DNA of 15,216 bases from Candidatus Odinarchaeia archaeon (GTDB taxonomy: Archaea > Asgardarchaeota > Odinarchaeia > Odinarchaeales > Odinarchaeaceae), in the NCBI GenBank assembly GCA_029856525.1, contig JAHQXC010000028.1:1-15216 (forward strand). The letters are read 5' to 3'. Below are positions 2,453 to 13,659 of the stretch, in pieces. Within the stretch, counting starts at the first letter, position 1. Every line of letters begins with the position of its first letter. The notes beneath the pieces are model-generated. The model saw only the letters and a list, made by a program, of their open reading frames with translations, was not told the DNA's origin and did not search any database. The position numbers and the translations under genes are program-made.

Positions 2453-3823
2453 ATGAGCCTTAACATATTAGATAAAACAGTAAAAATTCTGCGAGAATAC
2501 AAGCTTTGCAGTAATTGTTTAGGTAGAATGTTCGGTATGCTAGGAACAGGGTTAACTAATAAGGAGAGGGGTGAAGCGTTAATAATCGCTTTAATGATGC
2601 TTGCAGATGAAGAGATGAAGAATGAAGCTGCGGATAAGCTAAACGAGATAATCGAGGCTTTAAAAAATGTTGCCGGATTCAAAACACTCTATAAATTTCT
2701 ATCGGAGAGACTTAGTTTAAAACAGAGTGAAAACGTTTGCTACATTTGCGAAAATATTTTTGATCGACTTGAAGAATTAGTAAAGAAAAGTCTAAGTGAA
2801 ATCAACTCCTATGAGTTCAAAACCTTCTTAGTCGGCACGAATATAGATGAGAAGATAATTGAAAGAGAAGACAATTTCAGAGCGAAATTCAGTTTAACAT
2901 GGGGGGAATCTATTAAAAGCGAATTAAACAGGGAGATAGGTAAAATAATAAAAAAGCATTTCCCCGATGTGGAAACCAGTTTCGAAAACCCTCACATAAT
3001 AATCGAGTATAGCATTCCTAGCTTCAATTACAAGATAAACGTCAACCCTGTTTTCATATATGGAAGATATAGAAAATTAGTTAGAGGTATACCTCAAACC
3101 AAGTGGATTTGTAAAAGCTGCAAGGGAACTGGATGTGAAAGATGCGGTTTTAAAGGTAGAATGTATGATATCTCCGTGGAAGAGTTAATTTCTAAGCCTG
3201 TTATAGAGAAACTTAACGGAGTTAACGCGAAATTTCACGGCGCGGGAAGAGAGGATATAGATGCGATAATGACAGGTTTCGGGAGACCGTTCGTATTAGA
3301 GGTGAAAGGTGTTAAAAAAAGATTCATAGAATTAGAAGAACTGAAATCAGAGATCAATAATTACGCTAACGGTAAAGTTGAAGTCTCCGACTTAAAATGG
3401 ACTTCTAGAAATATGATTCGAAAAATTAAAGCACTCTCAAAGATTACAAGGAAAAAATACAGGGCTATTGTCCAATTAAATAATAATATAACAGACGACA
3501 AGATTATTGAAGCTGAAAAATATCTTTCAAACACTATTATTCAACAAAGAACACCTAAGCGAGTAGCTCATAGGAGAAGTGATAAACTTAGAGAAAAGCA
3601 AGTTTACAGCTTAAAAATAACAAGACTATCAGAGGATAAACTTGAAGTAATCGTTGACTGTCAAGGAGGACTCTATGTGAAAGAGCTTGTCAGCGGAGAC
3701 GACGGTAGAACTAAACCAAGCCTATCTGAGATATTAGGGGTTGAAGCGAAATGCATTCAATTAGACGTATTAGACGTTGATCTACCAGATGACGTGGTTA
3801 AAACAGGAATTCTTGATAAGTGA
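2453..3823 (+). CDS. pus10: tRNA pseudouridine(54/55) synthase Pus10
   Basis: N-terminal CxxC...CxxC, THUMP-like region, GRYRKLVRGIPQT, catalytic GAGREDID, QRTPKRVAHRR and GGLYVKELVSGDDGRT motifs. SD AGGTGA lies upstream. Confidence 0.97.
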   Translation: MSLNILDKTVKILREYKLCSNCLGRMFGMLGTGLTNKERGEALIIALMMLADEEMKNEAADKLNEIIEALKNVAGFKTLYKFLSERLSLKQSENVCYICENIFDRLEELVKKSLSEINSYEFKTFLVGTNIDEKIIEREDNFRAKFSLTWGESIKSELNREIGKIIKKHFPDVETSFENPHIIIEYSIPSFNYKINVNPVFIYGRYRKLVRGIPQTKWICKSCKGTGCERCGFKGRMYDISVEELISKPVIEKLNGVNAKFHGAGREDIDAIMTGFGRPFVLEVKGVKKRFIELEELKSEINNYANGKVEVSDLKWTSRNMIRKIKALSKITRKKYRAIVQLNNNITDDKIIEAEKYLSNTIIQQRTPKRVAHRRSDKLREKQVYSLKITRLSEDKLEVIVDCQGGLYVKELVSGDDGRTKPSLSEILGVEAKCIQLDVLDVDLPDDVVKTGILDK

Positions 3824-3835
3824 GCTACTCCTCGA

Positions 3836-3992
3836 CTAAAGTCGGGAGCTTCCAGCGTTCGTCTGAGGCTTTACACCTTCAGTTACACGTGCTGGTTCGC
3901 GGGGCTCACAGCTCCGCCATCCTGTGCCTCTCATTAAGGCATGGGCTATGTTTATGCATGCGTTCCGGTCTTCGGTTGTAGATTAACCCACA
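3836..3992 (-). pseudogene. tnpB: tnpB C-terminal remnant (end of zinc finger and RuvC-III), +1 frameshift
   Basis: Reads CGLIYNR (3992-3972), one extra A (3971), then DRNACINIA...GSSRL-stop. This matches the TnpB CGxxxxRDxNAxxNI motif. Confidence 0.8.
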
Positions 3993-4033
3993 TCAAGGGA
4001 ATATCCCTAAAACTTTTTTAAACACCGCGCGGA

Positions 4034-4046
4034 TATTTAAGTTTCT
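4034..4046 (-). promoter_or_regulatory. BRE-TATA inside E1 (AGAAA-CTTAAATA), predicted start near 4010
   Basis: Lies directly inside the LE hairpin, the same position as the TATA-like boxes in E2, E3 and E4. Confidence 0.5.
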
Positions 4047-4204
4047 GCCCATTCACCCCCTAACTGAAGTTAGGGGTTTTCTGGGCACCCTTTTTTATAA
4101 AAGCTAGTTTTTTAATAGCACACCAAAGAGTTTTTATTTTAATTGAATTATTCAGTTAGTTAACATGAAAGCTAATATGTGTTTAATAAGATAGGGTGCT
4201 AGTT

Positions 4205-4495
4205 ATGGTTAAAAGAACTAAAGGCTATAGAAATAGAACTAGAGACTTATTCTCTAAGAATACTAGGGAAAAAGGTATACCCCCTTTAAGCTACTTATTA
4301 AAAGAATATGAGCCTGGAGAGAAAGTCAGCATATATATAAACCCTACTATCCATAAAGGCCAACCACACCGAAGGTACCATGGTAGAACCGGGACAATTA
4401 TAGGTAGAAGAGGGCGCGCTTACCTTGTCTCTTTCAACATCGGTGGAAAAGAGAAAATAGTGATAACTAGGCCGGAACACATTAAAAGCGCTTAG
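4205..4495 (+). CDS. rpl21e: 50S ribosomal protein L21e (eL21)
   Basis: KGYRNRTR, GEKVSIYINP, KGQPHRRYHGRTG and RPEHIK motifs. ATG 4205 is preferred to GTG 4196 because SD AGGGTG lies at 4193-4198. Confidence 0.97.
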   Translation: MVKRTKGYRNRTRDLFSKNTREKGIPPLSYLLKEYEPGEKVSIYINPTIHKGQPHRRYHGRTGTIIGRRGRAYLVSFNIGGKEKIVITRPEHIKSA

Positions 4496-4513
4496 ATACG
4501 GAGGCTATTATAA

Positions 4514-4843
4514 ATGGTTAAAGAAAAAATCAAAGAGACACCGCTCACGTTAGCGGAGGTTAAAAATATTCTCCAGAAAAGAGAGAAAGAAGGGGAGCTT
4601 AGCTATGTGCAAAGAGTCACATTAGACTATGTTAGTAAGATGACTAGTTTAACTGTCCAGCAAGCTAGAAACCTGGTTAAAGAACTTATTAAATTAGGGG
4701 TTAGCGAGAATACAGCTATTCAAATAGCTAACGCTCTCCCCGAGTATAAAGAGGAGCTAAGTGTTTTCTTAACCGGTGAAAAAACCTTCACCCCTGAAGA
4801 AGTAGAGGAGATACTTAAAAAAATAAAAGAGTATAAGCAATAA
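4514..4843 (+). CDS. rpoF: DNA-directed RNA polymerase subunit F (Rpo4)
   Basis: 109 aa with TLAEVKNIL, LSYVQRVTLDY and AIQIANALP. Conserved position after rpl21e; SD GGAGG. Confidence 0.92.
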   Translation: MVKEKIKETPLTLAEVKNILQKREKEGELSYVQRVTLDYVSKMTSLTVQQARNLVKELIKLGVSENTAIQIANALPEYKEELSVFLTGEKTFTPEEVEEILKKIKEYKQ

Positions 4844-4906
4844 TCTATTTTTATTAGTACTCACTATCAATAAATATAAAATATTTTGTTAAAGAAGTGA
4901 ATTCGA

Positions 4907-5473
4907 ATGAGTTTTCAAAGCTCCAAGAAATACGAGGAATACGCATACGTGTTAGATTTTCTAAGAGACGGCAAACTAGATGTTAAAAGACAGGTTTACA
5001 CACATGAACCTGTTATTCAAGCTGTGGGTGAAGAGTTTTTCACATTACTAGAACTTGCACCGAAGAAAGATGTAACCGTTAACACCCATGAAAGAGTGTT
5101 TATAGGAGTGGGGAATAGGGATAAAATAGACCATGTAAAGAAGAGAATAGAATACGAGGAGTTAACCACCACCGCTAAAATAGAGTTACCTATAGCTGTT
5201 GAAAAAATAGTTGAGAAAAGGGAAGCGGATTTTATAAACTTCTTTAATGAAGCCAGGCCTCTAACGAATAGAATGCACCAGCTTGAATTACTTCCAGGTA
5301 TAGGGAAAAAACTTATGTGGGAGATATTAGAAGAGAGAAAAAAGAAGCCTTTTGAAAGCTTCGAAGATTTGATGAAAAGGGTTAGAATACCTGACCCTAA
5401 GAAGATGATAGTTAAAAGAATACTTAACGAGCTTGAAAAACAAGATAAATACCAGATATTCACAAGATCATGA
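4907..5473 (+). CDS. DUF655 family putative RNA-binding protein
   Basis: EEYAYVLDFL, QAVGEEFFTLLEL and RMHQLELLPGIGKK (HhH-like) motifs. Conserved neighbour of rpoF and ksgA in archaea. Confidence 0.9.
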   Translation: MSFQSSKKYEEYAYVLDFLRDGKLDVKRQVYTHEPVIQAVGEEFFTLLELAPKKDVTVNTHERVFIGVGNRDKIDHVKKRIEYEELTTTAKIELPIAVEKIVEKREADFINFFNEARPLTNRMHQLELLPGIGKKLMWEILEERKKKPFESFEDLMKRVRIPDPKKMIVKRILNELEKQDKYQIFTRS

Positions 5474-5480
5474 AATTCTC

Positions 5481-6320
5481 ATGATGCAAGATTACAATAT
5501 TTTAGATGAAACTAAAAGGATACTACGCGAAAACGGCGTATGGTTGAAGAGAAAACTCGGACAATCATTTCTTATAAATATGGAGTATATTTCGAAGCAG
5601 TTACAGGCTGGAAGACTAAATAAAAATGACATAGTTTTAGAGATAGGCGCAGGTATCGGTAATCTTACAGTTAAGCTCGCTCCGCTAGTTAAGAAAGTTT
5701 ACGCTATTGAATTAGATCACACTCTCGCAGAGATATTAAGAAAGAGGATTACAGCTTACAACAATATTGAAGTCTTTGAATGTGATGCTCTTAAATGCGA
5801 CTTCCCCCAATTTAATAAGATAATAGCGAACATACCTTATAATATCGCTTCTCCTCTCACGTTTAAAATACTCTCATATAAATTTGAACTAGGGGTTCTA
5901 ATGTACCAGCTTGAATTCGCTAAAAGACTTATCGCTAAACCAGGTTATGGAAACTATAGTCGACTAAGCGTTAACGCTGCGTTAAAAGCTGATGTTGAAA
6001 TAATCGACATAGTACCTAGAACCGCATTCTACCCTAAACCGAAAGTCGATTCTGCTATAGTGAAAATCATACCTAAAAATATTAAATTAAAAAGTGATAT
6101 AGAGGAGTTCACCAAGATAGTTAACGGAATCTTCTCTTATAAAAATAAAAAAATCTATTCAGCGATAAAACATTATATGAACAAGTTAAACATAGATAAG
6201 GAGACTCTGAAACAAATTTTATTAAATATACCCTACAGTGATGTAAGAGTCAAAGATATGAGCATAGACATGATAGATGATCTAACAGTTTATATTATAA
6301 ATAAGATGAGAGGGGTCTAA
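5481..6320 (+). CDS. ksgA: 16S rRNA (adenine-N6,N6)-dimethyltransferase KsgA/Dim1
   Basis: LGQSFL, VLEIGAGIG, IANIPYNI, YSRLS and FYPKPKVDSA motifs. ATG 5481 or 5484 is preferred to TTG 5433, which overlaps DUF655. Confidence 0.96.
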   Translation: MMQDYNILDETKRILRENGVWLKRKLGQSFLINMEYISKQLQAGRLNKNDIVLEIGAGIGNLTVKLAPLVKKVYAIELDHTLAEILRKRITAYNNIEVFECDALKCDFPQFNKIIANIPYNIASPLTFKILSYKFELGVLMYQLEFAKRLIAKPGYGNYSRLSVNAALKADVEIIDIVPRTAFYPKPKVDSAIVKIIPKNIKLKSDIEEFTKIVNGIFSYKNKKIYSAIKHYMNKLNIDKETLKQILLNIPYSDVRVKDMSIDMIDDLTVYIINKMRGV

Positions 6321-6321
6321 T

Positions 6322-6939
6322 ATAAAATTCTCATATAACGGTTATCTTTTCAATATTCCTGAAAACGTTTATCCGCCATCAGAGGACAGCTTCCTGCTAT
6401 TAGAAAATATTATTTTAAAACCAGGTGACATCCTACTAGAAATAGGAGCAGGATCAGGGTTCATAGCTATACAGCTAGCTAAAATGGTTAATAAAGTCGT
6501 GGCCACGGATATTTCACCTGAAGCGTTAAAAACAGCCATTGAAAACGCTAAACTAAACAATATTCACCATATAGATTTCAGGTTAGGAGACCTATTCGAT
6601 CCGATAATGGAAGATGAGAAATTCACCGTAATCATTTTCAACCCACCTTATCTGCCTACAAGCGAATGCGATAAAATACACGATCGATTAGAGACAGCTT
6701 GGGATGGGGGTTTTAACGGTAGAAAAGTCATTGATAAATTCATATATTCAGTTAAAAATTTCTTAACAAATACTGGTAGAGTTTATTTAATTCAATCTAC
6801 TCTAGCAGGAATAGAAGAAACTCTGAATAAATTTAACAGGCAAGGGTTTAAAACTAGAATACTTGCACGGAGAAAATATTTTTTCGAAGAACTAGTTGTC
6901 ATAGAAGCTGAAAAACAGGTGGGGGAGAATGCCTACTAA
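6322..6939 (+). CDS. hemK: HemK2/Mtq2-family (release factor glutamine) methyltransferase, start probably ATA 6322
   Basis: The frame is open from 6310. VYPPSEDSFLL and LLEIGAGSGFIA lie upstream of the first ATG (6484), with NPPY and WDGG downstream. SD GAGGGGT at 6310-6316. Confidence 0.85.
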   Translation: MKFSYNGYLFNIPENVYPPSEDSFLLLENIILKPGDILLEIGAGSGFIAIQLAKMVNKVVATDISPEALKTAIENAKLNNIHHIDFRLGDLFDPIMEDEKFTVIIFNPPYLPTSECDKIHDRLETAWDGGFNGRKVIDKFIYSVKNFLTNTGRVYLIQSTLAGIEETLNKFNRQGFKTRILARRKYFFEELVVIEAEKQVGENAY

Positions 6940-8086
6940 CCTGCCGCCGGAGGCACAGGTAGCTGAAGAAAAGTATAATGAAGCGACCACTCTACCTGAG
7001 AAGATTAAAGCACTCCAAGACTTTATCAGTAAGATCCCTAAACATAAAGGCACTGAAAAATTATTAAGCGTTTTGAAAACAAGACTGGCGAAGCTTAAAA
7101 ATGAATTAGAAAACTCTAAAAAAGTTAAGAGGGGAAGCGGTAGAAAGACAAATATACCTAAAGAAGGGGCTGCGCAGGTTGTGTTAATAGGATTAACAAA
7201 CACTGGTAAAAGCTCCCTCCTACACGCTTTAACAGGAGTGGATGTGAAAATCGCAGACTATCCTTTTACAACTAAAGAACCTGAGCTGGGGATGCTCAAC
7301 TATGAAGGTGTTCTAATTCAACTAGTAGAGGTGCCTGCAATATTCAACGGATTATCAAATAGTACAATAGGCCCAACTATATTCAGTATAATCAGAAATG
7401 CGGATGCCATATTAATACTAATAGATTTAACCGAGAACCCTTATGAACAATGGAACACTATTATCAATGAGCTTGATAAAAACAGTATAAAAATAAATAA
7501 AACACCGCCTGCAGTGAAAATTAAAAAAACAGGGAGCGGCGGTATAAATTTCATAGGTTTACAGTATTTTAAAGGCTGCAAAGAAGATCTTATAGAATTG
7601 TTGAAAGAATCGGGTATATACAATGCAACTGTTCATTTCAATGACTATGTGACGTTAACAGATTTCGCGGAAGTGTTAGATGAGCGGATTGTTTATAGAC
7701 CCGCGATTATAGTAGCTACTAAAGGAGACTTAGACGGGTCGGCGTATAATTATGAAGCTTTAAAAAATCATTTAAGAGGATTAGCTGAGATTATCCCCGT
7801 CTCAGTTAATAAAAATATAGGGCTGGAATTATTAAAAAACAAGGTTTTTACAATGTTAAATATTATAAGAGTTTACACTAAAGACGCTGAAAACGGGGTT
7901 TCACCTAAGCCTTTAGTTTTAAAAAAAGGAGCTACAGTAAGAGATGTGGCTAAAAGATTAAGCGTTAAATTCTTAAAAGAATTTAAATACGCGAAGATTT
8001 TCGGGCCTTCAGCTAAGTTCCCTGGAGAAAAAGTGGGGTTAGACCATGAATTAGCGGATAAAGATGTTGTACAAATATTCACATAA
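6929..8086 (+). CDS. DRG/OBG-family GTP-binding protein with C-terminal TGS domain
   Basis: N-terminus MPTNLPPE...IPKHKGTEKL; G1 GLTNTGKS; G2 YPFTT; G4 TKGD; TGS end VGLDHELADKDVVQI. Confidence 0.93.
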   Translation: MPTNLPPEAQVAEEKYNEATTLPEKIKALQDFISKIPKHKGTEKLLSVLKTRLAKLKNELENSKKVKRGSGRKTNIPKEGAAQVVLIGLTNTGKSSLLHALTGVDVKIADYPFTTKEPELGMLNYEGVLIQLVEVPAIFNGLSNSTIGPTIFSIIRNADAILILIDLTENPYEQWNTIINELDKNSIKINKTPPAVKIKKTGSGGINFIGLQYFKGCKEDLIELLKESGIYNATVHFNDYVTLTDFAEVLDERIVYRPAIIVATKGDLDGSAYNYEALKNHLRGLAEIIPVSVNKNIGLELLKNKVFTMLNIIRVYTKDAENGVSPKPLVLKKGATVRDVAKRLSVKFLKEFKYAKIFGPSAKFPGEKVGLDHELADKDVVQIFT

Positions 8087-8145
8087 TATCTCTCGCCTTA
8101 ACCAATTAAATATTTAAAGAGTTGAGAGTTATGAAATCAACTGAT

Positions 8146-8850
8146 ATGCTAGAGAATTTTAGAGTAGTACTTGTTGAACCGGAAAGCAGCGGAAATATAG
8201 GTTTCATAGCTAGATTAATGAAGAATTTCGGTTTAAAAGACCTAGTACTAGTGAATCCTATCGCGAAAGTAAACGAGGAGAGCGTTAATTTTTCAGCTCA
8301 CGCTGTAGACATTATAAATAATATTAAAATAGTAGATAGCTTGGAGGATGCTTTAGAAGACGCTGATCTGATTATAGGGACAACCTCCATACCCGGCTCG
8401 GATTATAATCCTATAAGAACATGCCTATCCTCATATGAATTATGTAAAATGGATTTCGCTGAAAAAAGTATTATAGCACTAGTTTTCGGAAGAGAGAGCA
8501 GAGGGTTAACGAATGAAGAGTTAAATCAATGCGATTTCACGGTTACAATACCGGCTGAACATAGCTATCCAACGTTGAATATTTCTCACGCTGCTTCAAT
8601 AATATTTTATGAATTACGTAAAGTTAAAGCTGAAAGAGGCTTCCAAAAAAGCAGGTTAGCTAGCAAAATCGAGAAGGAAATTATACTAAATTATTTCAAC
8701 GAGATTTTAAGTAAAATCGGATACCCTAGGGTTAAATTTCACATAGCGCGTAGAATAGTTAGAAACATATTCAGCCGGGCTTTAATCAGCGGACGTGAGG
8801 CGCATACTCTAATAGGGATCCTGAGACGGATTTCAGAAAATCTCAGCTAA
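8146..8850 (+). CDS. trmJ: TrmJ-family tRNA (position 32 2'-O)-methyltransferase, SPOUT
   Basis: VVLVEP..GNIG..ARLMKNFG, IGTT, VFGRESRGLTNEEL and YPTLNISHA motifs. The start could be 8122, 8131 or 8146; a TATA-like box at 8111-8118 fits a leaderless start at 8146. Confidence 0.88.
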   Translation: MLENFRVVLVEPESSGNIGFIARLMKNFGLKDLVLVNPIAKVNEESVNFSAHAVDIINNIKIVDSLEDALEDADLIIGTTSIPGSDYNPIRTCLSSYELCKMDFAEKSIIALVFGRESRGLTNEELNQCDFTVTIPAEHSYPTLNISHAASIIFYELRKVKAERGFQKSRLASKIEKEIILNYFNEILSKIGYPRVKFHIARRIVRNIFSRALISGREAHTLIGILRRISENLS

Positions 8851-9021
8851 TTAGAGAAACATAGAAGCCTACCGTATATCGATTGGAATAAGCTAATCTC
8901 TAGCAGAGAAGTAACAGCTTATACTCTTAAAGCATGTTGAAAAACCACTCGACCAGTGCGCTAATTTAAAGGTGTTTAGCTTTCAAACTATACTTTAACG
9001 AATAGAAGCGGTAGCTGAAAA

Positions 9022-9201
9022 GTGAACTACCCCTCCTTATCGGATGGGGTTTCCTGCTTCAATGATGAAGCCTGCCGGTATTTTCGACCGGTAGAGGCCC
9101 CGTCTCAGCCCGCATCTCTATCCTTTTTTACACTTGAAAACCGTAAATACTTTTCAGCTTTCAACCCCTAGCTTTCGCAGGGTGACTTCCAGCCGATAAA
9201 G
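9022..9201 (-). mobile_element. Element E2: 180-bp non-coding IS200/IS605-type mini-element (LE, promoter, about 100-nt scaffold, RE)
   Basis: RE reads GAAGCAGGAAA-CCCC-A-TCC-GATAA-GGA-GGGG-TAGTTCAC. LE reads TTTAA|CTTTATCGGCTGGAAG plus a CCCTGC-GAAA-GC-T-AGGG hairpin. Colinear with E3 end to end. The LE boundary is uncertain by about 3 nt. Confidence 0.88.
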
Positions 9202-9501
9202 TTAAAAGCCGAGTATTTTTCTAGCTTCAGGGGACATCATTTCAGGAGACCATGGGGGATCCCAAACCACTTGAACCTCTACTTTACCGATACCTTTAAT
9301 ATTACTCAATTTATTACGAACCTCGTTAGCTATTAAAGAGTGTAACGGACATCCTGGAGCTGTTAAAGTCATTTTCACATAAACATCCTTGCCGTCTTTA
9401 ATCTGAACATCGTATATTAAACCTAAATCAACAATATTAACAGGTATTTCGGGATCATAACAGGTTTTTAAAACTTTTATTACTTCCTCTTTTGAAATCA
9501 T
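9202..9501 (-). CDS. DUF59/MIP18 (SufT/PaaD-like) Fe-S cluster assembly protein
   Basis: 99 aa with DPEIPVNIVDLGLIY, TAPGCP and PPWSPEMM. SD GGTGGT at 9514-9509. Confidence 0.93.
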   Translation of the reverse strand: MISKEEVIKVLKTCYDPEIPVNIVDLGLIYDVQIKDGKDVYVKMTLTAPGCPLHSLIANEVRNKLSNIKGIGKVEVQVVWDPPWSPEMMSPEARKILGF

Positions 9502-9544
9502 TTAAGCAACCACCGTTAATTTTAAGTTATTTTATAGTAGCTTA

Positions 9545-9764
9545 GTGAATCACTCCAGCTCTCATAAACGGCTTCCGCTTCATAGAGAAGACTCACCGCG
9601 AGCGCAACCCGGAGGGAGTTGAATGCTACTCTTCGCCGGCTTCTCAGAGCTAACACAGCTCTAATAATCCTCTATGAGAGTGGAGCTCTCACAAAATATA
9701 ATGTAACCACGTCTTTATAAGAGTATCAGCCCCAAGACTGAGATGGGGATTCTAGCCTATAAAG
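9545..9764 (-). mobile_element. Element E4: 220-bp IS200/IS605-type mini-element with a remodelled RNA scaffold
   Basis: LE TTTAAA|CTTTATAGGCTAGAAT-CCCCA..TGGGG-CTGA is homologous to the E2/E3 LE. TTATAAAG at 9720-9713. RE-like TGAAGCGGAAGCC...GGAG-TGATTCAC. GTGAGTC (9596-9590) is complementary to the terminal GATTCAC (9551-9545). Confidence 0.72.
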
Positions 9765-9974
9765 TTTAAATATTGCAGCCGCAGCCTCAAAGAAAATTAG
9801 ATTAAGCGCATAGAATAACTCTGAAGCTTCTATATTATACTAATAAACTCCGACAAAGTTAAATATAGTAATGCATAACGTTAAGAATACTTAACTTGAG
9901 TGAAAAATGGAATGCTCGGTTAAATCACTATTATATTTCAAAAAACTCTAGTAGTCAATGCAGGTGAATTTAAT

Positions 9975-10505
9975 ATGCCTAAAAGACCTGGACATTGTTA
10001 TAGCAAGCTAGAGCCTAGACCATACGTGAAAAAAAAGACACGTAAGAAGAAAGAGCTAGTTAGAGGGGTCCCGGACAGTAAGATTCAAGTATTCGAGATG
10101 GGTGCGAAAGGGGTAAAATTCCCTGTTTATGTTCATCTCGTAGCTAAAGAAGCTGGACAGATAAGACATTTCGCGCTTGAAGCCGCCCGTGTCTCAGCTA
10201 ACCGTCTTCTAGAGAAGCAGGCAGTAAGCAAAGAGAGCTATCATTTGAAGGTTAGAGTTTATCCTCACCATGTTTTACGTGAAAATAAAATGATGGCTTT
10301 TGCTGGAGCGGATAGACTTCAAGACGGTATGAGAAGAGCTTTCGGTAAACCTATAGGAACAGCTGCGAGGGTTAGAGCTAACCAGGAGATTATTACTATA
10401 GGAGTTGTCCCACAGCTTCTAGAAACCGCTAAATTAGCTCTTAAGAGAGCTGCGGCGAAGATCCCTCTCCCATGCTCGATAGTAGTTACATCAAGTAACG
10501 ATTAA
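9975..10505 (+). CDS. rpl10e: 50S ribosomal protein L10e/L16 (uL16)
   Basis: RGVPDSKI, IRHFALEAARV, RVYPHHVLRENK and ADRLQDGMRRAFGKPIGTAARV motifs. SD AGGTGA. Confidence 0.97.
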   Translation: MPKRPGHCYSKLEPRPYVKKKTRKKKELVRGVPDSKIQVFEMGAKGVKFPVYVHLVAKEAGQIRHFALEAARVSANRLLEKQAVSKESYHLKVRVYPHHVLRENKMMAFAGADRLQDGMRRAFGKPIGTAARVRANQEIITIGVVPQLLETAKLALKRAAAKIPLPCSIVVTSSND

Positions 10506-10510
10506 CACTA

Positions 10511-10556
10511 TATTTTTATTTTTTATAAAAGATTAGCTGATTTAAAAAATATTTTT
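10511..10556. terminator. Oligo-T terminator zone between convergent rpl10e and ppsA
   Basis: T-runs at about 10511-10524 on the plus strand and A-runs at 10527-10530 and 10544-10549 (T-runs on the minus strand). Confidence 0.5.
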
Positions 10557-12951
10557 ATGAGAGGATTTTCCAGAAGTCTAGTTCATCCTCATCTAATCCG
10601 CTTATTCTAAGCTTAGATTTACCTGTAACCTTCTCTAACGCGAGTTTCCTTTCAATTTGAGCTACGTGCATCCTAGTTGATATAACAGCGTCAGGGTTCA
10701 CGCTTATACTTGTAACGCCGAGTCTTACAAGAAATTCAGCATATTCAGGGTAAACGCTGGGAGCTTGACCGCATATGGAAACAGTTACACCGTATTTTTT
10801 ACAAACCTTTGTAACATAATTTATAGCTCTTAACACAGCTATATCCCGTTCATCATAGATCTCTTGTACACTAGCATCGTTTCTGTCAACTCCTAAAATT
10901 AACATAGTCAGATCATTAGAGCCTATGCTAATACCGTTAATGCCTTCAGCGCATAATTTATCTATGATGAAAACAGCTGATGGGACTTCTAGCATTATCC
11001 AAAGCCAGAAGTCATGATCCTGCTCCGGGTTTAATCCTTCACTGTAAATTATCTCTTTGACCTTTCTAAACTCTCCTATAGTTCTAACAAAAGGTATCAT
11101 TAAATGAACGTTTTTTAGATTATATTTTTCTCTCACTCTTTTAATCGCTGCTAACTCTAATTTGAATATCTCCGGTTCCTTAGTGTACCTAAACTGGCCT
11201 CTGTAACCGATCATAGGATTAGGCCCGATATGCCCGGCTTCGCGCTCATATTTTTCACCGCCTTCTAGAGCTAAAAATTCATCAGGTTTAAAATCTAAGG
11301 CTCTGTATATAACCGGTTTAGGATGGAAAGCTTGAGCTACCATCCTTATGCTTTCAGCGAATTTATCAATCATTAGTTCAGCGCCACCCTCCTCTATTAG
11401 AAGCTTAGGATGCTTCCCTATTGAGAGCATCATATGCTCAGCTCTTAGAAGACCTACACCGTCAGCTAAGGTTTCACGCGCTACTTGCTCGGCTTTTTCA
11501 GGTATTGATAGATTGACATAGATTTTTGTAGCTGTAATAGGCTGCTCGAAAACTGTCCCTGTTACAGATGCTTTCCGCTCTTCTATTCCTTGAACTAAAC
11601 CATCGTATACAAATCCTTTGCTGCCGTCAACCGTCACTAACTGAGTATTTTTTAAAATAGTTGTCGCATTTCCAGCTCCTACAACACATGGAACACCTAG
11701 TTCTCTACTGACGATCGCGGCGTGACATGTATAGCCGCCTTCATCGGTCACTATAGCACTCGCCTTCTTCATAGCTGGAACCCATGAAGGCGTAGTCATT
11801 TTTGTAACTAATACATCCCCGTTCTGAATTTTATTAATTTCACTAGAATCTAAAATTATGTTAACCTTACCTGCGCCAACACCAGGGCTTACAGGCAAAC
11901 CTTTAACTAGAATTTTACTCTCGGAAACCGCTTGAACAGCCTCTGTTTTTTTAACACCTTGAGCCCCGTAAACTGTTTCAGGTCTAGCTTGAAGAATATA
12001 TATTTTATGAGTTTCTCTATCTATAGCCCATTCAATATCCATCGGGATACCGTAGTGTTCTTCTATTTTTTTAGCTATACGCGCCAATTCTAAAACATAT
12101 TCATCTGAGATACATAATTTCTCCTGCTCCTCTTTAGGAACAGGGACTGTAACCACTTTACCTGTTTTAATATCGATAATATCTTTTGTAGCTTTCTTAC
12201 CGATCTGTTTTTCAACTATCCTCATAGTGTTCTTGTCTACGATGAATGTGTCAGGTGTTACAGATCCGCTTACCACCGCCTCACCGAGGCCGTAGCTTGC
12301 GTCTATTAATATTTTAGTTGGGTCACCTGTAACGGGATGTATAGTAAACATAACTCCCTGAGCTTCAGGATCCGGGGCAACCATCTCCTGAACGGCGACG
12401 CTTATCAGTATTTTTTCATGATCGAATCCTTTCTCATGCCGGTAGGATATAGCTCTAGGTGTGTAAAGTGAACTCCAGCATTTCATTACCGCTTCTATTA
12501 AATGATCTTTATCAACATTCAGAAAAGTATCTTGTTGACCTGCGAAGCTGGCTCCTGGAAGATCTTCAGCTGTAGCGCTTGATCGAATAGATAAGCGGAC
12601 GTTTTTATGAGTTAAACTTTCCAGCCGATTATACGCTTCTAGTATCGCCTGCTTTATTTCAGGGAACATTGGAGTTGACTCGATTAAAGTTCTTATCTCG
12701 CGTGAAATTTGATTAAGCTTGTTAAGATCAGATAAATCTATGTTTTTCAAAGCTGATTTTATTTTATTTAACAATCCAGACTCAGTGATGAATCTTTTAT
12801 ACGCGTAAGCTGTTACAGCGAAGCCTTTAGGTGTAGGAGCTCCAGCTCGAGTGAGCTCGCCTAAATTAGCGCATTTCCCTCCCACGTAAGGTATGTCTGA
12901 TTTTGAGAGTTCATCGAACCATAATATGAGCTTCTTTGACTTATCAGACAT
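10555..12951 (-). CDS. ppsA: Phosphoenolpyruvate synthase (pyruvate, water dikinase)
   Basis: 798 aa with VGGKCANLGEL, RSSATAEDLPGASFAGQQDT, phospho-His motif GGYTCHAAIVSRELG, NPMIGYRG, SIGSNDLT and ICGQAPS. SD AGGTGG. Confidence 0.97.
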   Translation of the reverse strand: MSDKSKKLILWFDELSKSDIPYVGGKCANLGELTRAGAPTPKGFAVTAYAYKRFITESGLLNKIKSALKNIDLSDLNKLNQISREIRTLIESTPMFPEIKQAILEAYNRLESLTHKNVRLSIRSSATAEDLPGASFAGQQDTFLNVDKDHLIEAVMKCWSSLYTPRAISYRHEKGFDHEKILISVAVQEMVAPDPEAQGVMFTIHPVTGDPTKILIDASYGLGEAVVSGSVTPDTFIVDKNTMRIVEKQIGKKATKDIIDIKTGKVVTVPVPKEEQEKLCISDEYVLELARIAKKIEEHYGIPMDIEWAIDRETHKIYILQARPETVYGAQGVKKTEAVQAVSESKILVKGLPVSPGVGAGKVNIILDSSEINKIQNGDVLVTKMTTPSWVPAMKKASAIVTDEGGYTCHAAIVSRELGVPCVVGAGNATTILKNTQLVTVDGSKGFVYDGLVQGIEERKASVTGTVFEQPITATKIYVNLSIPEKAEQVARETLADGVGLLRAEHMMLSIGKHPKLLIEEGGAELMIDKFAESIRMVAQAFHPKPVIYRALDFKPDEFLALEGGEKYEREAGHIGPNPMIGYRGQFRYTKEPEIFKLELAAIKRVREKYNLKNVHLMIPFVRTIGEFRKVKEIIYSEGLNPEQDHDFWLWIMLEVPSAVFIIDKLCAEGINGISIGSNDLTMLILGVDRNDASVQEIYDERDIAVLRAINYVTKVCKKYGVTVSICGQAPSVYPEYAEFLVRLGVTSISVNPDAVISTRMHVAQIERKLALEKVTGKSKLRISGLDEDELDFWKILS

Positions 12952-12995
12952 TTAAACCACCTTAAACAGAATACCAATTTTATACTTTTATACAA

Positions 12996-13010
12996 ATATA
13001 TATTTTTTAC
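12996..13010 (-). promoter_or_regulatory. BRE-TATA candidate for ppsA (GTAAAAAA-TATATAT)
   Basis: About 45 nt upstream of the ATG, which puts the expected start site upstream of the SD. Confidence 0.5.
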
Positions 13011-13020
13011 TATTCAGATA

Positions 13021-13196
13021 GTGAACTACCCTTATCGGAAGGGGGTTTCCTGTTTTAATGATGAAGCTTACTGGTGTGTTTCGCCCAGTAGAGGCTCCGT
13101 CTCAGCCCCGCATCTTTATCTTTTTTGAAGATTTGGAATTATAAATATCTTCTGGCTTCAGCCTCCAGCTTTAGCAGGGGCTTCCCGCCGATGAAG
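13021..13196 (-). mobile_element. Element E3: 176-bp sister of E2 with a shortened RE hairpin
   Basis: LE TTTAA|CTTCATCGGCGGGAAG-CCCCTGC-TAAA-GC-TGGAGG-CTGA; TATTTATA at 13147-13140; RE GGAAACCCCCTTCCGATAAGGGTAGTTCAC. Aligns to E2 over its full length. Confidence 0.88.
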
Positions 13197-13224
13197 TTAA
13201 AATGAGAGGATTAGAAAAGTTCGC

Positions 13225-13659
13225 TCATAGATTATATGAGAGGAGAATGCTTTTACTAGTATTAGTGGTTTTGAAAAACTTTAAAATATTCTCTGAGGGG
13301 AACTCGCCTGATAGACATCTTATAATGAGAGAGCTGTTAACTTTTATCGAGAGTGTGAGAAGATCCATTATAATTTCTATAGGCGGTCTGATACTGTAAA
13401 TTAAATCAGTATCATAGTAATTCTCGAGATGAGGGTTGCTTACGTCGTCGAGTATTATTTTTAAATCAGTTTTTTCATTGATAAACTCGCTTACCTCTAA
13501 TGATCTATCTACTACTAGTATTTCTGTTTTAGGATACAGTGCTTTCAGTTTCAAAGCTATATCAGGATAGAAGCCTACTCCGATTTCAACTATTTTTTTA
13601 GGCGAAGTAAATCTTTCCGATATAAAGTTTATTATTTCATCTTGGTCTAGTAAAGGCAC
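13225..13659 (-). CDS. UPF0146 family protein (Rossmann, methyltransferase-like)
   Basis: GTG start 4 nt after the eno stop. KIVEIGVG, DD..P and DLIYSIRPP.E are family-like motifs. Confidence 0.8.
   Translation of the reverse strand: MPLLDQDEIINFISERFTSPKKIVEIGVGFYPDIALKLKALYPKTEILVVDRSLEVSEFINEKTDLKIILDDVSNPHLENYYDTDLIYSIRPPIEIIMDLLTLSIKVNSSLIIRCLSGEFPSENILKFFKTTNTSKSILLSYNL

What the first reader, a model, noticed from the sequence alone, without database searches (positions are those of the whole stretch)
3820..13196. Four protein-less IS200/IS605 mini-elements built like stand-alone TnpB guide-RNA cassettes in a core gene region
Seen in sequence: E1 (3820-4096), E2 (9022-9201), E4 (9545-9764) and E3 (13021-13196) each have an LE hairpin, a TATA-like box just inside it, a structured 100-190 nt segment and a right end ending in TCAC. 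No tnpA or intact tnpB is in the window. Established: TnpB reRNA derives from the IS200/IS605 right end, and the flanking DNA after the terminal tetranucleotide becomes the guide. Inference: internal deletion has fused the LE promoter directly to the scaffold, so each element could express a guide RNA for a TnpB, or a nuclease-dead TnpB, encoded elsewhere. Predicted 20-nt guides: E1 TTATCAAGAATTCCTGTTTT, E2 TTTTCAGCTACCGCTTCTAT, E4 TAAGCTACTATAAAATAACT, E3 TATCTGAATAGTAAAAAATA. At least three scaffold types occur within 10 kb.
Basis: partly seen in the sequence, partly recalled or inferred. Interest (0 to 1): 0.9.

Follow-up and report, generated by a model that had tools for sequence, protein, structure and literature searches.

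The report
Protein-less IS200/IS605 mini-elements with guide-RNA remnants
Four short, gene-less relics of TnpB transposons sit between core genes of an archaeal genome; one keeps a complete guide-RNA gene behind its own promoter, but such stand-alone guide-RNA elements are already described, so this is a clean new example and not a new kind of system.

Summary
E1 (3820-4096), E2 (9022-9201), E4 (9545-9764) and E3 (13021-13196) are minus-strand, protein-less IS200/IS605 derivatives of the PATE type. Each follows TTTAT (E1) or TTTAA (E2-E4) and ends in TCAC. All four sites are empty in three same-genus genomes.

- **E1:** an internal-deletion copy of a full-length tnpB-only IS in the same genome (C93). 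The conserved tnpB promoter is fused to 174 nt of right end. That stretch holds the whole covariation-supported omega-RNA scaffold (35 of 37 pairs). The cognate TnpB has an intact RuvC triad.
- **E2 and E3:** members of a family of about 22 copies. Their scaffold is homologous to TnpB-linked right ends in other genomes, but they lack its first conserved hairpin and part of a long-range helix. E2's TATA box is mutated. No cognate tnpB is in the 93%-complete assembly, and the copies show no covariation above controls.
- **E4:** a single-copy orphan with a fuller scaffold.

No RNA data exist, so expression is untested. Stand-alone, mobilised omega-RNAs that act in trans are already published (Altae-Tran 2021 as cited in PMC10691335; Meers 2023; SisTnpB7). 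Other first readers of this scan noted the same families in other windows of this genome. Verdict: new members of a known kind. Interest 0.3.

The parts
3820..4096 (-). E1: 277-bp non-autonomous IS200/IS605 element (PATE), an internal-deletion derivative of the tnpB-only IS at G000:C93:25965-27305
   Evidence: Sense positions 1-103 equal the C93 left end (91% identity) and 104-277 equal the C93 right end (95%). The same junction occurs in the copies on C71 and C125. The site is empty in relatives.
3820..3993 (-). E1 right-end part: the complete omega-RNA scaffold (8 helices) ending in GCTCAC. It includes a start-less 48-aa TnpB C-terminal stub.
   Evidence: Alignment A2 with 12 TnpB-linked right ends gives 37 pairs, 95.6% paired, 17 pairs with compensatory changes and 0 of 500 shuffles as good. 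E1 forms 35 of 37 pairs. Fold z-score is -3.6.
3994..4096 (-). E1 left end: hairpin 4056-4076, GGATGAAT-like motif, TATA box 4033-4040, and tnpB 5' leader up to the TTG start codon
   Evidence: The same order (hairpin, ATGAAT, TTTAAATA, about 25-30 nt, GGGATGTTCCC, start codon) is conserved upstream of tnpB in 11 relatives.
4097..4101 (-). Target/TAM of E1: TTTAT on the element strand
   Evidence: The 5' flank is conserved in all E1-family copies.
3800..3819 (-). Predicted E1 guide (flank after TCAC), antisense to the 3' end of pus10
   Evidence: Sequence. Its only perfect genomic match is this flank.
9022..9201 (-). E2: short-form member of a PATE family of about 22 copies. Left-end hairpin, mutated TATA (9141-9150), ATG remnant, truncated omega-RNA scaffold (about 9022-9118), end GTAGTTCAC.
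   Evidence: Family membership. Model R1 gives 58.9 bits with hairpin P-a absent and 2 broken pairs in the long-range helix. Site empty in relatives.
9202..9206 (-). Target/TAM of E2: TTTAA. It contains the stop codon of the Fe-S assembly gene 9202-9501.
9545..9764 (-). E4: single-copy PATE. Left-end hairpin 9730-9748, TATA 9712-9720, scaffold of about 146 nt with hairpin P-a kept, end GATTCAC. It lies 43 bp upstream of the Fe-S assembly gene in sense orientation.
   Evidence: R1 gives 21.5 bits, E 2e-5. Fold z-score -3.0. No relatives among 400 genomes of the phylum.
13021..13196 (-). E3: diverged short-form member of the E2 family (77% identity to E2). TATA 13139-13147 intact, truncated scaffold. 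It lies 69 bp upstream of ppsA in sense orientation.
   Evidence: R1 gives 35.0 bits with P-a absent. Fold z-score only -1.0. Site empty in relatives.
13197..13201 (-). Target/TAM of E3: TTTAA

Best explanation
The four elements are non-autonomous IS200/IS605 derivatives (palindrome-associated transposable elements, PATEs).

Origin and spread: each arose from a tnpB-carrying insertion sequence by an internal deletion that removed almost the whole tnpB reading frame. What remains is the left end (TnpA hairpin plus the tnpB promoter and start codon) joined to the right end (the omega-RNA scaffold plus the TnpA hairpin). The mini-elements then spread by single-strand 'peel-and-paste' transposition, using a Y1 transposase supplied in trans. 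The only tnpA in the assembly is on contig C44. They inserted 3' of TTTAT (E1) or TTTAA (E2-E4).

E1: it has a complete scaffold, a conserved promoter and an intact cognate TnpB in the genome. E1 most likely makes an omega-RNA whose guide is its own flank. TnpB would then cut the empty TAM+guide site left after excision, and recombination would restore the element (the homing/retention model). I put this at about 0.5.

E2 and E3: they have lost part of the scaffold and have no cognate TnpB in the assembly. As guide genes they are probably decaying relics (about 0.2 that they work).

E4: an orphan of unknown standing.

Shown here: identity, origin by deletion, boundaries, targets, mobility, and scaffold completeness. 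Inferred: transcription, TnpB loading, homing, and which TnpA moves the elements.
For: - Full-length parent of E1 with the exact deletion junction.
- Three mini copies share this junction at different loci, each after TTTAT.
- All four sites are empty in three same-genus genomes.
- The E1 scaffold is supported by covariation across 12 TnpB-linked relatives, and E1 forms 35 of 37 pairs.
- The promoter layout upstream of tnpB is conserved in relatives and kept in E1.
- C93 TnpB keeps the D/E/D motifs that its relatives conserve.
- The E2-family left end and right end are homologous to the ends of tnpB elements in other genomes of the phylum.
- Model R1, built only from TnpB-linked right ends, finds E2, E3, E4 and E1.
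- TTTAA as TAM, TTCAC as right end, the guide starting directly after it, and guide RNA working from a separate locus are all shown experimentally for Sulfolobus islandicus TnpB7 (PMC11043419).
- PATEs arising from IS605-type elements by core deletion are described in PMC3119063.
- PATEs and stand-alone omega-RNAs acting in trans are described in PMC10055086 and PMC10691335.
Against: - Expression is untested.
- The window's E1 copy has two adjacent mismatches at the base of helix 2.
- E2 and E3 lack hairpin P-a and two pairs of the long-range helix, and E2's TATA box is mutated.
- The E2-family copies show no covariation above shuffled controls.
- No cognate tnpB for E2, E3 or E4 is in the assembly. 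The assembly is only 93% complete and breaks at these repeats.
- Whether the single TnpA on C44 recognises these ends was judged only by eye, from similar left-end motifs.
Confidence: 0.75

Rival explanations
1. One reading: all four elements are working stand-alone guide-RNA genes. Each is expressed from its left-end promoter and loaded onto a TnpB, or a nuclease-dead TnpB, encoded elsewhere. Together they form a dispersed guide repertoire.
For: - The promoter-plus-scaffold layout recurs in independent families.
- Model R1 hits all four elements.
- Trans action of separately encoded guide RNA is shown in Sulfolobus and reported for stand-alone omega-RNAs.
- The C44 TnpB has Gly at the canonical RuvC-II Glu, so a non-canonical TnpB does exist in the genome.
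Against: - E2 and E3 lack a hairpin that covaries in every TnpB-linked relative, and part of a helix.
- They keep about 90 nt of scaffold, where the Sulfolobus enzyme needs about 176 nt.
- E2's TATA box is mutated.
- No tnpB of the matching clade is in the assembly.
- The right end of the C44 element looks unrelated by eye.
- Each guide matches only its own flank, which sits behind TCAC and not behind a TAM.
Confidence: 0.12
2. Inert debris: none of the four is transcribed into a used RNA. They are neutral remains of past transposition, and the retained scaffold only reflects where the deletions happened to fall.
For: - No covariation above controls among the E2-family copies.
- Many copies carry C.A mismatches, left-end hairpin deletions or right-end deletions.
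- E2's TATA box is mutated, and E3 folds no better than shuffles.
- E1 in the window carries two stem mismatches and a frameshifting insertion.
Against: - The E1 family is young (94-99% identity) and has moved after the deletion.
- Its promoter and all 8 helices are intact, and its TnpB is intact.
- Independent families kept much more right end than TnpA hairpin recognition should need. The size of that need rests on my knowledge of IS608 and was not tested here.
Confidence: 0.25
3. Their main effect is on neighbouring genes. The outward-reading internal promoters of E3 and E4 feed into ppsA and the Fe-S assembly gene. E1 and E2 sit at gene 3' ends, giving antisense or terminator effects.
For: - E4 ends 43 bp and E3 ends 69 bp upstream of minus-strand genes, in the same orientation.
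- E1 supplies the pus10 stop codon, and E2's TAM holds the Fe-S gene's stop codon.
Against: - The same genes sit at the same places without the elements in three relatives. The native upstream sequence of ppsA is conserved downstream of E3, so the genes do not depend on the elements.
- AT-rich TTTAA/TTTAT targets are simply common at gene ends.
- There are no expression data.
Confidence: 0.1

Closest known systems
Palindrome-associated transposable elements (PATEs) of IS200/IS605, first defined in Haloquadratum walsbyi (PMC3119063)
   Same: No inverted terminal repeats, no target duplication, subterminal hairpins at both ends, too short to encode a protein, multi-copy, and derived from IS605-type elements by deletion of the core.
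   Different: Here the parent and the exact deletion junction can be shown for E1. The deletions in two families fall so that the tnpB promoter abuts the omega-RNA scaffold.
Stand-alone / PATE-borne omega-RNAs acting in trans (Altae-Tran 2021 as cited in PMC10691335; Meers et al. 2023, PMC10055086)
   Same: Mobilised omega-RNA loci without effector or transposase, in genomes that also hold effector-carrying elements. The guide is the flank after the right end.
   Different: Those cases are bacterial and were tested experimentally. Here the host is an uncultured archaeon with a small (1.3 Mb) genome and nothing is tested. Most copies (the E2 family) have a truncated scaffold and no cognate effector in the assembly.
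Sulfolobus islandicus IS605-type TnpB7 and its reRNA (PMC11043419)
   Same: TAM TTTAA, right end ...TTCAC, guide starting directly after it, and guide RNA functional when transcribed from another locus. These are the same signals as in E2, E3 and E4.
   Different: TnpB7 needs about 176 nt of reRNA, while E2 and E3 keep about 90 nt. E1 uses TTTAT and ...GCTCAC and belongs to another TnpB clade.
TldR (TnpB-like nuclease-dead repressors) with guide RNAs
   Same: A TnpB-family protein using a right-end-derived guide RNA. One TnpB in this genome (C44) lacks the canonical RuvC-II glutamate.
   Different: TldR guides target promoters elsewhere and the loci are immobile. Here each guide matches only its own flank, the elements are mobile, and E1's cognate TnpB has an intact triad.

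Membership tests
IS200/IS605 non-autonomous element (PATE) | Insertion 3' of a fixed tetra- or pentanucleotide, without target duplication or terminal inverted repeats | tested here: met
   TTTAT (ATTAT in one copy) precedes all E1-family copies and TTTAA precedes the E2 family and E4. The flanks after TCAC are unrelated. The empty sites in relatives fit a simple insertion.
IS200/IS605 non-autonomous element (PATE) | Subterminal hairpins at both ends, related to those of transposase- or TnpB-carrying IS elements | tested here: met
   The E1 ends are 91-95% identical to the C93 IS ends. The E2-family left and right ends are homologous to the ends of tnpB elements in G014, G108, G037 and others.
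IS200/IS605 non-autonomous element (PATE) | No protein-coding capacity | tested here: met
   No conserved ORF. E1 has only a start-less TnpB tail stub, and the C71 and C125 copies have a stop right after the junction.
IS200/IS605 non-autonomous element (PATE) | Mobilised as a mini-element: the same internal structure at several loci | tested here: met
   Three E1-type copies share one deletion junction at different loci. The E2 family has about 22 copies. E4 is single-copy, so this is not shown for E4.
IS200/IS605 non-autonomous element (PATE) | Excision and insertion by a Y1 TnpA supplied in trans | not testable with these tools
   One tnpA is in the assembly (C44). Its left end shares the hairpin plus GGATGAAT layout by eye.
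TnpB omega-RNA (reRNA) gene | Sequence derived from the tnpB 3' end plus the right end, ending at the element boundary | tested here: met
   E1 against C93. E2 family against TnpB-linked right ends. R1 hits on all four elements end exactly at TCAC.
TnpB omega-RNA (reRNA) gene | Complete conserved secondary structure of the cognate clade | tested here: inconclusive
   Met for E1: 35 of 37 pairs, within the 32-37 range of TnpB-linked sequences. Not met for E2 and E3: hairpin P-a is absent and the long-range helix is weakened. E4 keeps P-a but scores low, at 21.5 bits.
TnpB omega-RNA (reRNA) gene | A cognate TnpB with an intact RuvC triad in the same genome | tested here: inconclusive
   Met for E1: C93 TnpB has the IDRG, MENL and NRDL motifs, conserved in its relatives. 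Not found for E2, E3 or E4, in an assembly that is 93% complete and fragmented.
TnpB omega-RNA (reRNA) gene | Transcribed and bound by TnpB | not testable with these tools
   No RNA run holds this DNA. A promoter is inferred from a TATA box conserved at a fixed distance from the tnpB start.
TldR-type guide for a nuclease-dead TnpB | Guide complementary to a distinct genomic target next to a TAM | tested here: not met
   Each 16-nt guide core has one perfect match, its own flank behind TCAC. The best other hit is 1 mismatch for E4, behind ATAAA.

The most novel reading that the evidence does not exclude
In this small archaeal genome, independent TnpB transposon families have each been pared down to a minimal 'promoter plus omega-RNA' cassette. 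These cassettes outnumber the two tnpB genes by more than ten to one. One or both TnpBs would then serve a dispersed set of trans-encoded guides, including cross-use of E2-type or E4-type RNAs. That would be a natural intermediate between one-guide transposon nucleases and multi-guide systems.
Probability: 0.08. Interest if true: 0.6.

Novelty: new member of a known kind. Interest (0 to 1): 0.3.

Why it matters
If E1 is expressed and used, it would be a natural archaeal example of a minimal, self-promoted omega-RNA gene that works with a TnpB encoded elsewhere. The parent element sits in the same genome and the TAM (TTTAT) is already readable from the insertion sites. That makes it a convenient test case for trans-guided homing and a compact guide-expression design.

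The E2 family shows the other outcome. Its copies went on spreading after losing part of the scaffold and, apparently, their nuclease. This suggests TnpA alone can drive the spread of such elements.

For genome annotation, these GC-rich islands should be labelled as IS200/IS605 PATEs and not as new RNA genes.

Tried and rejected
- **Rfam:** no family reached its gathering score. At E<=1 there was only a weak sR24 C/D-box hit at 13318-13350, outside the elements.
- **Sequencing runs:** no RNA holder is listed for this DNA. The only holder is the probable source sediment metagenome.
- **Logan contigs of that metagenome:** no contig joins across any element as an empty site. Contigs break inside E1, E2 and E3 and run through E4. 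The joints listed lie inside E1 or have short sides.
- **E4 relatives:** none among 400 genomes of the phylum, apart from short patches.
- **Covariation in the E2 family:** a four-hairpin structure gave 78% paired cells and a covariation score of 0.123 against 0.119 in shuffles, so it shows nothing either way.
- **Second targets for the guides:** none.
- **Cognate tnpB for E2/E3:** not found by tblastn with the G037 TnpB, by the family search, or beside any R1 hit.
- **C44 as the E2 parent:** I suspected C44:8000-8140 to be part of that IS and homologous to the E2 scaffold. nhmmer did not support this. It looks more like a degenerate E2-like remnant next to the IS, and I left it open.
- **Bacterial promoter/terminator scan:** not used, because the host is an archaeon.
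Full report
**Context.** The window is contig C29 of a 1.32-Mb archaeal metagenome-assembled genome (127 contigs, 93% complete). It carries core genes: SRP54, Pus10, L21e, RpoF/Rpb4, DUF655, KsgA, a Drg-type GTPase, a SpoU methylase, a DUF59 Fe-S assembly protein, L10e, PEP synthase (ppsA) and enolase. The window is 37% GC and the four elements are 47-50% GC.

**Observation.** All four elements are real and their boundaries are exact.
- E1 (3820-4096) matches two other full mini copies (C71, C125) at 94% identity, and several contig-end fragments.
- All E1-family copies follow TTTAT (one ATTAT) and end ...GTAGCTCAC, with unrelated flanks beyond.
- E2 (9022-9201) and E3 (13021-13196) are 77% identical to each other. 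They belong to a family of about 22 copies that always follows TTTAA and ends ...GTAGTTCAC.
- E4 (9545-9764) is single-copy. It follows TTTAAA and ends GATTCAC.
- Three same-genus genomes keep the same gene order at 75-86% identity but lack all four elements. In one, the TTAAAA next to E2 is plainly host sequence. In another, the E1 site reads as the joined flanks.
- The window has no tnpA and no intact tnpB.

**Origin of E1.** Contig C93 holds a full-length tnpB-only insertion sequence (25965-27305).
- Its first 101 nt and last 173 nt are 91% and 95% identical to the two halves of E1.
- The deletion junction lies at the tnpB start codon on one side and 157 nt before the tnpB stop on the other.
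- The three mini copies share this junction at different loci. One deletion was therefore followed by transposition of the mini-element.
- The C93 TnpB (open frame 426 aa) keeps the RuvC motifs IDRG, MENL and NRDL and the zinc-ribbon cysteines. These are conserved in relatives with 72-81% amino-acid identity, found in assemblies labelled as several archaeal phyla.

**The E1 scaffold.** I aligned the 174-nt right-end part of E1 with the C93 element, the two other mini copies and 12 TnpB-linked right ends from other genomes.
- RNAalifold gave 37 pairs in 8 helices.
- On this structure 95.6% of cells pair, 17 pairs show changes on both sides, and none of 500 shuffles reaches the observed values. 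Sliding the partners drops pairing to 35-51%.
- E1 in the window forms 35 of 37 pairs, within the 32-37 range of TnpB-linked sequences. Its two failures are adjacent C.A and A.C mismatches at the base of helix 2.
- E1 therefore carries the entire scaffold.

**The E1 promoter.** Upstream of tnpB, 11 relatives share one order: hairpin, ATGAAT motif, a TTTAAATA-type TATA box, about 25-30 nt, a GGGATGTTCCC motif, then the start codon. E1 keeps all of this up to the start codon. A transcript starting near 4012 would run straight into the scaffold and out into the flank. That the box works as a promoter is inferred from its conservation and spacing.

**E2 and E3.**
- The family's left end (TTTAA, CTTTATCGG..., hairpin, TATTTATAG, about 22 nt, ATG) is homologous to the left end of a tnpB element in genome G014. 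Its right end is homologous to right ends that directly follow tnpB genes in G037, G014, G007, G017 and others. The family is therefore again 'promoter, ATG, right end'.
- The TnpB-linked right ends of this clade share a covarying hairpin (P-a), a long-range helix (CCUG with CAGG), an inner helix and the terminal hairpin.
- Model R1, built only from 14 such right ends of other genomes, scores a long family variant (C32) at 85 bits with all helices. E2 scores 58.9 bits and E3 35.0 bits. In both, P-a is missing and two pairs of the long-range helix are broken.
- Most family copies are such short forms, made by at least two different deletions.
- E2 also has two substitutions in the otherwise near-invariant TATA box.
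- Among 19 family sequences, a four-hairpin structure shows 78% pairing and no covariation above shuffles. Many copies also have deleted left-end hairpins. This fits neutral decay.
- No tnpB of the matching clade is in the assembly. None of the 23 R1 matches in the genome lies beside a tnpB. The assembly is incomplete and breaks at these repeats, so absence is not proven.
- In Sulfolobus islandicus, TnpB7 uses the same TAM (TTTAA) and right end (TTCAC). It accepts guide RNA made from another locus, but loses activity when the RNA is shortened below about 176 nt (PMC11043419). E2 and E3 keep about 90 nt.

**E4.** R1 aligns E4 at 21.5 bits (E about 2e-5) with hairpin P-a intact. The predicted 146-nt RNA folds better than shuffles (z -3.0). 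No relatives were found in 400 genomes of the phylum, and no cognate tnpB is known.

**Guides.** Each guide's only perfect match in the genome is its own flank, which lies behind the right end and not behind a TAM. This is what the homing model expects, since the target exists only after excision. It gives no support to a regulator role.

**Mobilisation.** The assembly holds one tnpA (C44). The left end of that element shows the same hairpin plus GGATGAAT layout as the E1 clade. That one TnpA could serve families with different target motifs rests on my knowledge of IS608, where the target is read by DNA base pairing within the left end. This was not tested here.

**Prior knowledge.**
- PATEs, including their origin from IS605-type elements by core deletion, were described in Haloquadratum (PMC3119063).
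- Meers et al. state that PATEs often encode omega-RNAs that must be used in trans by TnpB from other elements (PMC10055086).
- Altae-Tran et al. 2023 summarise that stand-alone, mobilised omega-RNAs without an effector occur and work in trans (PMC10691335).
- Other first readers of this scan noted the same families in other windows of this genome.

**Expression.** No RNA run holds this DNA, so expression could not be examined. Contigs of the probable source metagenome show no empty-site joints. Summed word depth over E1 is about 4200, against about 19 for the flanking genome. This includes other organisms and suggests the E1/C93 family is widespread in that community.

**Verdict.** These are PATE-type derivatives of TnpB transposons. 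E1 is a credible self-promoted omega-RNA gene with its nuclease in the genome. E2 and E3 are truncated orphans, and E4 is an orphan with a fuller scaffold. They are new members of a known kind. Interest 0.3.

Noticed in passing
G000:C44:8222-9899 (L035:213-1893): The only tnpA plus tnpB element of the assembly. Its TnpB has Gly where the canonical RuvC-II Glu lies: IVVGNL aligned to IQMEDL of a solved TnpB-like protein. It may belong to the 'RuvC-II rearranged' branches that PMC10691335 reports as mostly archaeal, or it may be inactive.
   Followed up: partly
G000:C121:4020-4445: Another mini-element. It has a left-end-like start after TTTAT, a TnpB stub holding only the zinc ribbon and the RuvC-III motif, and then a structured right end. 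It is a third deletion-derivative family.
   Followed up: no
window 3818-3823 and 9202-9204: The pus10 reading frame now ends in a TGA supplied by the first bases of E1; the joined flanks would read AAA TAA. The Fe-S assembly gene's stop codon lies inside E2's TTTAA target.
   Followed up: partly
The gene sits at the same place in three relatives that lack both elements, so it was not brought in by them.
   Followed up: partly
window 12952-13020 and 9502-9544: E3 and E4 end 69 and 43 bp upstream of ppsA and the Fe-S gene, in sense orientation. Read-through from their internal promoters could reach these genes.
   Followed up: no
L079-L094 (other genomes): TnpB proteins 72-81% identical to the C93 TnpB occur in assemblies labelled Terraquivivens, Methanodesulfokora, Culexmicrobium, Baldrarchaeota, Odinarchaeota, Bathyarchaeota and Methanomethylicota. 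This suggests recent horizontal spread among thermal-habitat archaea. The terminal hairpin of one (L082) is of the E2 type, which hints at end swapping.
   Followed up: no
window 3834-4167 in run X1: Summed contig word depth over E1 is about 4200, against about 19 for the neighbouring genome. The E1/C93 element family is far more abundant in the source community than this genome.
   Followed up: no
G000:C119:7732-8025: Two R1 (omega-RNA-like) matches lie head to tail (7732-7849 and 7917-8025). This may be a tandem or nested insertion of two family members.
   Followed up: no
G000:C44:7993-8140: Directly upstream of the tnpA element, after TTTAA, lies CTTCATAGAAGCGG... and a stretch that resembles the long E2-family scaffold by eye. 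nhmmer did not detect it. It may be a degenerate family member beside the IS.
   Followed up: partly
window 13318-13350: Weak match to the C/D-box sRNA family sR24: 23.6 bits against a gathering score of 36, E 0.1.
   Followed up: no
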